Below, one piece after another: positions 11,460 through 55,692 of a DNA stretch of 64,000 bases. The DNA is from the human T2T-CHM13v2.0 reference genome, Homo sapiens. The notes below the pieces were generated by a model, which had not been told where the DNA came from, did no database searches, and saw only the letters and a list, made by a program, of their open reading frames with translations. Position 1 is the first letter of the stretch, and every line of letters starts with the position of its first letter. A program made the position numbers and the translations under genes. The stretch lies in the NCBI RefSeq assembly GCF_009914755.1, contig NC_060944.1. One strand, 5' to 3'.

Positions 11460-11705
<246 letters not shown>

Positions 11706-11959
11706 TCATGGAAAACAGGGCAAGCAATAGCTACAGAGTTCCAGAGCCATGTTAAATTAATAAATAAGTAAATATTTAAACATTGAATACCTTAACAATT
11801 AAAAATCATATCTATCTATTATATTGTTGAATGACAAAAGCCTATTACAGGATGATTCTACCTATATCGACATTTGCATATATGCATAAAGCAAGTCTGG
11901 AAGGACCTTCACAAGCATGTTAACAATGGTCACCTATGGGTAGGGAGATCTTCTTTGAA

Positions 11960-12303
11960 TTTTTTTTTTTTTTTTTTTGGTGCATTAGCGATCTTGATGG
12001 TTTCAAATGTCATCACCAGGGAATGATAAACGCTGGGGCCTACTTAGGGTGGAGGGCAATAGGAGAGTGAAGATTGAAAAACTACCTATCTGATATTATG
12101 CTGATTACCTGGGTGACAAAATTTTCTGTACACCAAATCCCCAAGACACACAATTAGTGCGTGTAACAAACCTGCATATGAATCCCTTTAAAGTAAAATA
12201 CAAGTTGAAAGGAAAAAAATAAAACCTCTTCAATCATCTTTCAGATAGCAATTTTTTTCATTGCTTCTTCAGTGTACATAAATATTCTTTTACATCATTC
12301 ACA
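11960..12303 (-). pseudogene. SNORD24 (U24) C/D-box snoRNA retrocopy with poly(A), split by two insertions
   Basis: Minus strand reads TGATGTAAAAGAATATT / TGCTATCTGAAAGATG / GTGATGACATTTGAAACCATCAAGATCGCTAATGCACC-A19, matching the U24 sequence as recalled; TSD CTTCTTTGAA at 11950-11959 and 12304-12313. Confidence 0.85.
12019..12220 (+). mobile_element. L1PA (older primate) 3'-UTR fragment inserted into the SNORD24 copy
   Basis: GAAAAACTACCTATC...TACCTGGGTGACAAAAT..CTGTACACCAAA..GTAACAAACCTGCA followed by an A-rich tail. Confidence 0.85.
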
Positions 12304-12451
12304 CTTCTTTGAACTTTTCTGTACTGTTTAAATATCGCAATAATGTTTATGCATCCTATTTTAAAAACAACAACAACAAATTAAAAAATAAAAAGGAGAA
12401 GGAGGAAGGTGAGGAGGAGAAAAAGAATAACAAAAAAGACTTGTGATCCTA

Positions 12452-15512
<3,061 letters not shown>

Positions 15513-18443: not shown

Positions 18444-18756
18444 TCACCCTTGTTCCACCCTCAACCCACATTCTCCAATAAAAGAAAGAAGGTCAGCAGG
18501 TCTAAAAGAGACTGACCTCCACCCCCACCAGGGCTTGAGAAAGACATCTATGGCAAGTCACTCTCAGTTTAGTTTCCATCCATCTCTTCCCTAGCCACAC
18601 CCAACCAAAACCCATTTTCAGTGTCCTCACAAAGAATGGATTACCCATCTGTCCTAAATATGTAAATCGTACAATCCCACAGGCACACACATACCCTCTA
18701 GCTCTCCCATATCATCTGAGCCCTCAAATAGCACAAACAAGAGGTCAGCACCAGCC

Positions 18757-36532: not shown

Positions 36533-55692
<19,160 letters not shown>

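What the first reader, a model, noticed from the sequence alone, without database searches (positions are those of the whole stretch)
11950..12313. Full-length SNORD24 (U24) retrocopy split into three pieces
Seen on the minus strand between 10-bp TSDs (CTTCTTTGAA): box C plus guide (TGATGTAAAAGAATATT, 12303-12281), a roughly 29-nt insert, TGCTATCTGAAAGATG with box D' (12250-12235), an antisense L1 3' end (12220-12019), then GTGATGACATTTGAAACCATCAAGATCGCTAATGCACC and A19. Joined, these reproduce U24 as I recall it, and both guides are complementary to the 28S segment GATCTTGGTGGTAGTAGCAAATATTC. Box D is mutated (CTAA), so it is probably non-functional. The host L1M sequence is continuous once the unit is removed. 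Fragmentation would likely hide it from standard ncRNA scans.
Basis: partly seen in the sequence, partly recalled or inferred. Interest (0 to 1): 0.72.

Follow-up and report, generated by a model that had tools for sequence, protein, structure and literature searches.

The report
Dead, split SNORD24 (U24) retrocopy
This is an old, dead, LINE-1-made DNA copy of the small nucleolar RNA U24 that two later insertions cut into three pieces; it is an ordinary kind of genomic fossil that standard RNA-gene scans miss.

Summary
On the minus strand of 11950-12313, three stretches tile the whole 75-nt SNORD24 gene of chromosome 9 colinearly and without gaps: 12303-12280, 12249-12235 and 12016-11981. Identity is 68 of 75. 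Two bases of the parental intron (CC) follow, then A19, and identical 10-bp target-site duplications bracket the unit. This is the anatomy of a Type-1 snoRNA retroposon (Weber 2006).

Two insertions split the copy:
- A 28-30-nt A-tailed insert of unknown origin.
- A 206-nt 5'-truncated LINE-1 3' end on the opposite strand, plus 10 unexplained bases.

Relatives of the LINE-1 piece all end in an A-tail and run upstream into ORF2 coding sequence.

The copy is dead. Box D reads CTAA, the D' guide is interrupted, and the RefSeq table supplied shows no host intron. Rfam scores the fragments at 24.0 and 20.6 bits against a cut-off of 41, and a genome-wide Rfam scan misses the locus.

Not confirmed: that the host sequence is an L1M, and that it is continuous across the site. 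The order of the two later insertions cannot be settled without other primate genomes.

It is a new member of a known kind, of low interest.

The parts
12304..12313 (-). 5' copy of the target-site duplication (TTCAAAGAAG read on the minus strand). It may extend 5 nt further upstream (AAAAG), giving 15 bp with one mismatch.
   Evidence: identity of the two 10-mers asserted; extended comparison
12280..12303 (-). Piece 1: SNORD24 nt 1-24, 21 of 24 identical. It holds the 5' terminal-stem bases, box C (ATGATGT) and the 5' half of the D' guide, and it starts directly after the TSD.
   Evidence: Rfam SNORD24 20.6 bits, 12273-12303
12250..12279 (-). Small insert of 28-30 nt ending in A7. Its boundary is ambiguous by a duplicated TT and its origin is unknown. 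It splits the D' guide.
   Evidence: only 2 near-matches (3 mismatches) genome-wide; no local duplicate, scores within the shuffle range
12235..12249 (-). Piece 2: SNORD24 nt 25-39, 14 of 15 identical. It holds the last 5 nt of the D' guide and box D' (CTGA).
12225..12234 (.). 10 bases of unknown origin between the L1 A-rich tail and piece 2 (filler).
   Evidence: 39 of the 39 genomic L1 matches other than the locus itself stop at query 198-211 of 216, 38 of them at 198-207; 11 of 11 relatives diverge after the A-tail
12019..12224 (+). 5'-truncated LINE-1 3' end of 206 nt (ORF2 C-terminal codons, a short 3' UTR and an A-rich tail), antisense to the U24 copy.
   Evidence: 2837 first-look candidates, of which 40 were scored: the locus itself plus 39 others at 78-83% identity; A-tail ends; upstream ORFs of relatives match LINE-1 ORF2p chains at E 5.9e-37 and 8.4e-53; ORF2 fragments hit 12043-12224 (+) at E 3e-21
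12017..12018 (-). TG that repeats the last two bases of piece 2. It is a possible 2-bp target duplication of the L1 insertion.
   Evidence: (Rfam aligns it to model positions 39-40)
11981..12016 (-). Piece 3: SNORD24 nt 40-75, 33 of 36 identical. It holds box C' (TGATGA), the D guide (12 bp to 28S with one G-U), the former box D now reading CTAA, and the 3' terminal-stem bases.
   Evidence: Rfam 24.0 bits; genome BLAST 92% over parent 38-75
11979..11980 (-). CC, identical to the first two intron bases downstream of the parent (the next two, AA, may also be templated).
11960..11978 (-). A19 tail
11950..11959 (-). 3' copy of the target-site duplication

Best explanation
The unit is a Type-1 snoRNA retroposon: a DNA copy of the U24/SNORD24 box C/D snoRNA encoded on chromosome 9.

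Inferred mechanism: a U24 RNA, matured at its 5' end and carrying 2-4 intron bases and an oligo(A) tail at its 3' end, was reverse-transcribed by the LINE-1 machinery at a nick in an A-rich target. This left a full-length 75-nt copy, CC, a poly(A) tract and a 10-bp (perhaps 15-bp) target-site duplication.

Shown by nesting: the copy was later hit twice.
- A 28-30-nt A-tailed fragment of unknown origin went in between U24 nt 24 and 25.
- A 206-nt 5'-truncated LINE-1 3' end went in, in the opposite orientation, between nt 39 and 40, together with 10 filler bases and only a 2-bp duplication.

Function: none. Box D is CTAA, the D' guide is cut in two, boxes C and D lie about 320 nt apart, and the RefSeq table supplied shows no host intron. 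It was probably never expressed as a snoRNA.
For: - Tiling: the three pieces tile the parent 1-75 without gaps, 68 of 75 identical. The unguided alignment scored 103 against a control maximum of 47 (n=990). Each piece is unique.
- Source gene: chr9 SNORD24 (Rfam 92.7 bits) fits far better than the only other family member, on chr1: 68 of 75 against 53 of 84 aligned columns.
- Ends: the copy starts right after the TSD at the parent's first base. It ends with CC(AA), as in the parental intron, then A19.
- TSD: identical 10-mers, extendable to 15 bp with one mismatch and then starting with AAAA.
- Class definition: these features match Weber's Type-1 snoRT definition. That definition is a 5' end fully matured, 0-9 extra bases, an A-rich tail and a TSD of 8-19 bp, with a ttAAAA insertion consensus (PMC1687206, passages seen).
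- L1 identity of the large insert.
- Guides and targets.
- Dead state: CTAA, split D' guide, Rfam 24.0 and 20.6 bits against a cut-off of 41.
Against: - No orthologous empty site could be examined, so neither the insertion itself nor the order of the two later insertions is shown by comparison.
- Continuity of the host sequence across the site was not demonstrated (0 of 7 HSPs span it; multiple alignment unresolved).
- The TSD as strictly read starts with TT rather than the A-run expected of a LINE-1 nick. Only the 15-bp reading, with one mismatch, fits.
- The L1 insertion is atypical: 2-bp duplication, 10 filler bases and no A-rich target. The small insert has no identified source.
- Infernal could not be run on the joined sequence, because the Rfam tool takes stored sources only and Infernal is not in the script box.
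Confidence: 0.95

Rival explanations
1. Only piece 3 (with the poly(A) tract and the 3' TSD copy) is a real, 5'-truncated U24 retrocopy. Pieces 1 and 2 and the upstream TSD copy are chance similarities.
For: BLAST of the parent against the genome reports only piece 3 (parent 38-75, 92%). Rfam's better hit is also piece 3 (24.0 bits).
Against: Piece 1 (21 of 24) and piece 2 (14 of 15) each occur once in the window. They occur 0 times in 146,572 background bases and 0 times in 20 shuffles. They lie in the right order and strand, they complete the parent exactly with no overlap or loss, and piece 1 abuts a perfect 10-bp repeat of the 3' flank.
Confidence: 0.01
2. The composite arose in one event: a chimeric retrotranscript formed by template switching of the LINE-1 reverse transcriptase between U24 RNA, L1 RNA and a third RNA, rather than by three separate insertions.
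For: The internal junctions are unusual for endonuclease-dependent L1 insertions. They show 2-bp duplications (TT, TG), 10 filler bases, no A-rich target, and a very short A-tailed insert of unknown source. snRNA/L1 chimeric retrocopies are known (recalled, not checked here).
Against: The L1 piece is antisense to U24 and carries its own A-rich tail internally. Template switching keeps all segments in the same sense and gives one terminal tail. U24 is complete on both sides of each insert with small duplications, as expected of insertions into an existing copy.
Confidence: 0.03
3. DNA-level duplication or gene conversion from the RPL7A intron rather than retroposition.
For: Two to four bases downstream of the snoRNA match the parental intron.
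Against: Similarity stops at the mature 5' end and 2-4 nt past the 3' end. Upstream bases differ. An A19 tract and a TSD flank the unit. BLAST finds no further RPL7A sequence here.
Confidence: 0.01

Closest known systems
Type-1 snoRNA retroposons (snoRTs), Weber 2006, PLoS Genet 2:e205 (PMC1687206; abstract and passages read)
   Same: The 5' end lies at the mature snoRNA 5' end. A few extra 3' bases come from the parental intron. There is an A-rich tail and a TSD in the 8-19-bp range, and LINE-1-mediated insertion is inferred.
   Different: The examples of Type-1 snoRTs in the passages I read are H/ACA snoRNAs, and U24/SNORD24 has 0 occurrences in that paper's main text. This copy is a box C/D snoRNA, is intergenic, and has been split by two later insertions.
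SNORD24 (U24), chr9, hosted with SNORD36 copies (RPL7A per PMC3511933 table)
   Same: 68 of 75 bases. Box C, box D', box C' and the D-guide complementarity to 28S are retained.
   Different: Box D is CTAA. The D' guide is interrupted by 28-30 nt, and the body by 216 nt of L1 plus filler. There is no host intron. Rfam scores are below the cut-off.
snRNA/L1 chimeric retrocopies such as U6-L1
   Same: A small nuclear or nucleolar RNA sequence lies adjacent to an L1 3' end within one TSD-flanked unit.
   Different: In those chimeras the small RNA is fused 5' of a sense L1 3' end with a single terminal poly(A). Here the L1 piece is antisense, internal, has its own tail, and interrupts a complete U24 copy.

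Membership tests
Type-1 snoRT (Weber 2006) | Sequence derived from a known snoRNA, full length | tested here: met
   68 of 75 identical to chr9 SNORD24, gapless, all 75 positions covered
Type-1 snoRT (Weber 2006) | 5' end coincides with the mature snoRNA 5' end | tested here: met
   Parent position 1 (Rfam model position 1) directly follows the TSD. The upstream bases differ from the parental intron.
Type-1 snoRT (Weber 2006) | 0-9 additional bases, then a short A-rich tail | tested here: met
   CC (perhaps CCAA) as in the parental intron, then A19
Type-1 snoRT (Weber 2006) | Bracketed by a TSD of 8-19 bp | tested here: met
   Identical 10-mers; 15 bp with one mismatch if extended
Type-1 snoRT (Weber 2006) | Empty site in a related species or paralogue that fixes the insertion point | tested here: inconclusive
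   No other eukaryotic genome is held. Both flanks are unique in the assembly. 0 of 7 HSPs to 30 old-repeat copies span the junction.
Functional SNORD24 gene (Rfam RF00069) | Score at or above the gathering cut-off of 41 bits | tested here: not met
   24.0 and 20.6 bits for two fragments. The locus is absent from the genome-wide scan, which found 2 loci. The joined sequence could not be scored.
Functional SNORD24 gene (Rfam RF00069) | Box C and box D (CUGA) next to a terminal stem | tested here: not met
   Box C is present, but box D reads CTAA (position 70, G to A). Three of the first five bases have changed.
Functional SNORD24 gene (Rfam RF00069) | Contiguous guides to 28S C2338 and C2352 | tested here: not met
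   The D guide is kept (12 bp, one G-U). The D' guide is split, so the stretch now upstream of D' gives only an 8-bp duplex with 4 G-U elsewhere.
Functional SNORD24 gene (Rfam RF00069) | Sense location in an intron of a transcribed host gene | not tested
   The supplied RefSeq table shows no gene over 11950-12313. WFDC3 ends at 18745. No expression data are available.
LINE-1 3' end fragment | High-copy repeat whose copies end in an A-rich tail and continue upstream into ORF2 | tested here: met
   2837 candidates. 11 of 11 relatives end in an A-tail. Of 6 upstream ORFs taken from 2 relatives, the 2 that were searched match LINE-1 ORF2p residues 808-945 and 1037-1130.
LINE-1 3' end fragment | Canonical endonuclease-type insertion (TSD of about 7-20 bp, A-rich target) | tested here: not met
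   Only a 2-bp TG duplication, 10 filler bases and no A-rich target in the U24 sequence

The most novel reading that the evidence does not exclude
The copy records the RNA that was captured: a U24 processing intermediate that was 5'-matured, 3'-extended by 2-4 intron bases and oligoadenylated. It appears to be the only SNORD24 retrocopy detectable in this assembly, since one search found the parent and this locus only. The two later inserts have 2-bp duplications, filler bases and no A-rich target. On this reading they are endonuclease-independent patches at DNA breaks, making the locus a small natural record of break repair by retro-insertion.
Probability: 0.3. Interest if true: 0.25.

Novelty: new member of a known kind. 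Interest (0 to 1): 0.15.

Why it matters
It matters little biologically. It is a non-functional retro-pseudogene of a class described in 2006.

It has modest value in three respects:
- It is an annotation gap. The RefSeq table supplied has no row for it, and Rfam at curated thresholds misses it.
- It shows that nested insertions hide small-RNA pseudogenes from covariance-model scans.
- It offers a three-layer nested marker (U24 copy, L1 piece, small insert) that could be used as presence/absence characters in primate or mammalian phylogeny once orthologous loci are compared.

Tried and rejected
- Pfam on 6 translated ORFs upstream of two L1 relatives gave 0 families. The PDB sequence search of two of them settled the L1 identity instead.
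- Left flank 11660-11949 and right flank 12314-12546 against the whole assembly gave only self-matches. Sensitive blastn of both flanks against the rest of the window and 11 L1 loci gave only 4 short hits, with E from 5e-4 to 8e-3.
- A motif pair from the flank is enriched genome-wide (90 against 13 in the reversed-pattern control). So the flank is an old dispersed repeat. But 0 of 7 HSPs from 30 fetched copies span the insertion point. A MAFFT alignment of 8 selected copies shows similarity only about 40 nt around the motif. I picked those 8 of 30 for 13-nt spacing and a shared start of the spacer. The name L1M rests on my recall only.
- tblastn with 74 ORF fragments from the L1 relatives against the window gave 387 HSPs. 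They were dominated by Alu sequence carried in those loci and said nothing about the host flanks.
- Small insert: 2 genome matches at 3 mismatches and 0 in the control. Local alignments to the neighbourhood scored within the shuffle range (68 to 293 of 300 shuffles reached the observed score). I rejected a tandem-duplication origin that I suspected by eye.
- The chr1 SNORD24-family member was rejected as parent (53 of 84 columns against 68 of 75).
- Literature: searches, and passages of PMC1687206, PMC2832892 and PMC3349704, showed no U24/SNORD24 retrocopy. So 'not in print' holds only for the main texts searched.
- Earlier findings of this scan were not open.
- Infernal on the joined fragments was not possible with the tools.

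Full report
**What is in the sequence**

Read on the minus strand, the unit runs in this order:
- TTCAAAGAAG (12313-12304).
- 24 nt beginning TGTGAATGATG (12303-12280).
- A 28-30-nt stretch ending in A7 (12279-12250/51).
- 15 nt, GCTATCTGAAAGATG (12249-12235).
- 10 unassigned bases (12234-12225).
- A T-rich start followed by about 200 nt (12224-12019).
- TG (12018-12017).
- 36 nt beginning GTGATGAC and ending GCTAATGCA (12016-11981).
- CC, then A19 (11978-11960).
- TTCAAAGAAG again (11959-11950).

The two 10-mers are identical (assert).

**Is it U24?**

A scan of the window's own assembly with Rfam RF00069 found the genuine SNORD24 on contig 9 (92.7 bits). It lies 625-1376 nt upstream of three SNORD36 copies. 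That fits the RPL7A host given in the table of PMC3511933.

Aligned by reference, the three pieces tile that 75-nt gene in order. Joined in a script, they align without any gap, 68 of 75 identical. There are six transitions and one transversion, at parent positions 3, 4, 5, 34, 52, 59 and 70.

An alignment of the whole 364-nt unit to the parent, with free gap extension and no prior knowledge of the pieces, found the same three blocks. It scored 103. The 990 random stretches of the window gave mean 27, sd 5.5 and max 47.

At the observed mismatch levels each piece occurs exactly once in the window. Each occurs 0 times in 146,572 bases of other human loci and 0 times in 20 shuffled windows.

The only other Rfam SNORD24-family member in the assembly lies on contig 1 between SNORD75 and SNORD77. 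It is a much poorer match, 53 of 84 aligned columns.

**Retroposition**

Four features point to retroposition:
- The copy begins at the parent's first base, right after the TSD. The bases upstream differ from the parental intron.
- After the last snoRNA base come CC (perhaps CCAA), exactly as in the parental intron, then the A-tract.
- The TSD is 10 bp as strictly read. With one G/A mismatch it extends to 15 bp and then starts with AAAA.
- Weber 2006 (PMC1687206, passages) defines Type-1 snoRTs by these same features. [quoted passage not shown]

All four sequence features are met. Capture of an oligoadenylated processing intermediate by the LINE-1 machinery is inferred, not shown.

**The large insert**

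The stretch 12019-12234 (+) has 2837 first-look candidates in the assembly. Forty were scored: the locus itself and 39 others at 78-83% identity. All 39 stop at query position 198-211 of 216, and 38 of them at 198-207, which is at the A-rich tail. So the last 10 bases (12225-12234) are not part of the repeat.

In 11 of 11 fetched relatives the similarity ends in an A-run, and the flanks then diverge. Pfam found nothing in six upstream ORFs from two relatives. The two of them that I searched against PDB chain sequences matched LINE-1 ORF2 protein. One matched residues 1037-1130 at E 5.9e-37. The other matched residues 808-945 at E 8.4e-53.

ORF2-derived fragments also hit 12043-12224 (+) directly.

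Its junctions are atypical: a 2-bp TG duplication, 10 filler bases and no A-rich target. The subfamily could not be named, because no repeat library is available. My impression of an L1PB/L1MA-like 3' end is recall only.

**The small insert**

It is 28-30 nt long, ends in A7, and has TT on both sides. It has no repeat-family relatives: 2 genome matches at 3 mismatches and 0 in the control. It is not a local duplicate, since scores fall within the shuffle range. Its origin is unknown.

**Function**

The quoted 28S segment occurs 220 times in arrays spaced about 45 kb apart on contigs 13, 14 and 15 and on other contigs not listed. It lies inside an Rfam LSU rRNA match of 1271 bits.

The parent's D' and D guides form 13-bp and 12-bp duplexes with it. 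The target bases opposite guide position 5 are two cytosines 14 nt apart. This agrees with the published C2338 and C2352. The position numbers come from that table, not from my calls.

In the copy:
- The D guide still pairs (12 bp, one G-U).
- Box D reads CTAA.
- The D' guide is cut in two.
- Three of the first five bases have changed.

The supplied RefSeq table shows no gene over the unit. I conclude that it is a dead pseudogene.

**Detectability**

Local Rfam scans give 24.0 bits (piece 3) and 20.6 bits (piece 1) against a cut-off of 41. The genome-wide Rfam scan lists only the two bona fide loci. BLAST of the parent finds only piece 3 here, and no other copy in the assembly. That count is a lower bound, by the tool's own caveat.

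**Age and order**

Nesting shows that the U24 copy predates both inserts. The relative order of the two inserts is open.

Divergence from the parent is 7 of 75, a Jukes-Cantor distance of 0.10 (95% interval 0.04-0.21). The L1 piece is 78-83% identical to its best relatives. Both figures suggest tens of millions of years. That estimate is an inference using recalled neutral rates, and it is poorly constrained.

**What was not confirmed**

The claim that the host is an L1M and is continuous once the unit is removed was not confirmed.
- Both flanks are unique at BLAST sensitivity.
- A motif pair just 3' of the site is enriched (90 against 13). So the flank is an old dispersed repeat.
- However, 0 of 7 HSPs to 30 copies span the junction.
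- An alignment of 8 selected copies is unresolved beyond about 40 nt.

Supplementary lists of known snoRTs could not be read. Four literature searches and the main texts read show no U24 retrocopy.

**Verdict**

The locus is a new member of a known kind, a Type-1 snoRT, with no sign of function. Interest is low.

Noticed in passing
window 11507-11656 (+), 12547-12663 (+), 12680-12827 (+): Sub-threshold Rfam Metazoa_SRP hits (68.5, 51.9 and 11.2 bits against a cut-off of 70), with overlapping mir-1268, mir-3135 and mir-1285 partial hits. This is the usual signature of Alu elements flanking the unit on both sides.
   Followed up: no
L002 1501-1582 (-) = G000:C1:173224753-173224834: The only other locus above the Rfam SNORD24 cut-off (55 bits). 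It lies in a snoRNA cluster between SNORD75 and SNORD77, with SNORD74, 44, 78 and 79 nearby. It is presumably SNORD76 in GAS5 (name recalled). It is not the parent of the copy.
   Followed up: partly
window 41783-42883 (+): Hit by 48 tblastn HSPs from LINE-1 ORF2 C-terminal fragments (best E 1e-61). This is a sizeable L1 ORF2 remnant in an intron of DNTTIP1.
   Followed up: no
L017 326-3026: cmscan reports LSU model positions 1-2362 starting at locus base 326. That would put the U24 target segment (locus 1501-1526) near rRNA position 1176 rather than the published 2338-2352. The 5' part of the alignment is probably forced through the expansion segments, so I took the numbering from the literature.
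   Followed up: no
window 12026-12142 (+): A 22.4-bit hit to C. elegans snoRNA ceN33 (cut-off 75) inside the L1 piece. It is a chance match.
   Followed up: no
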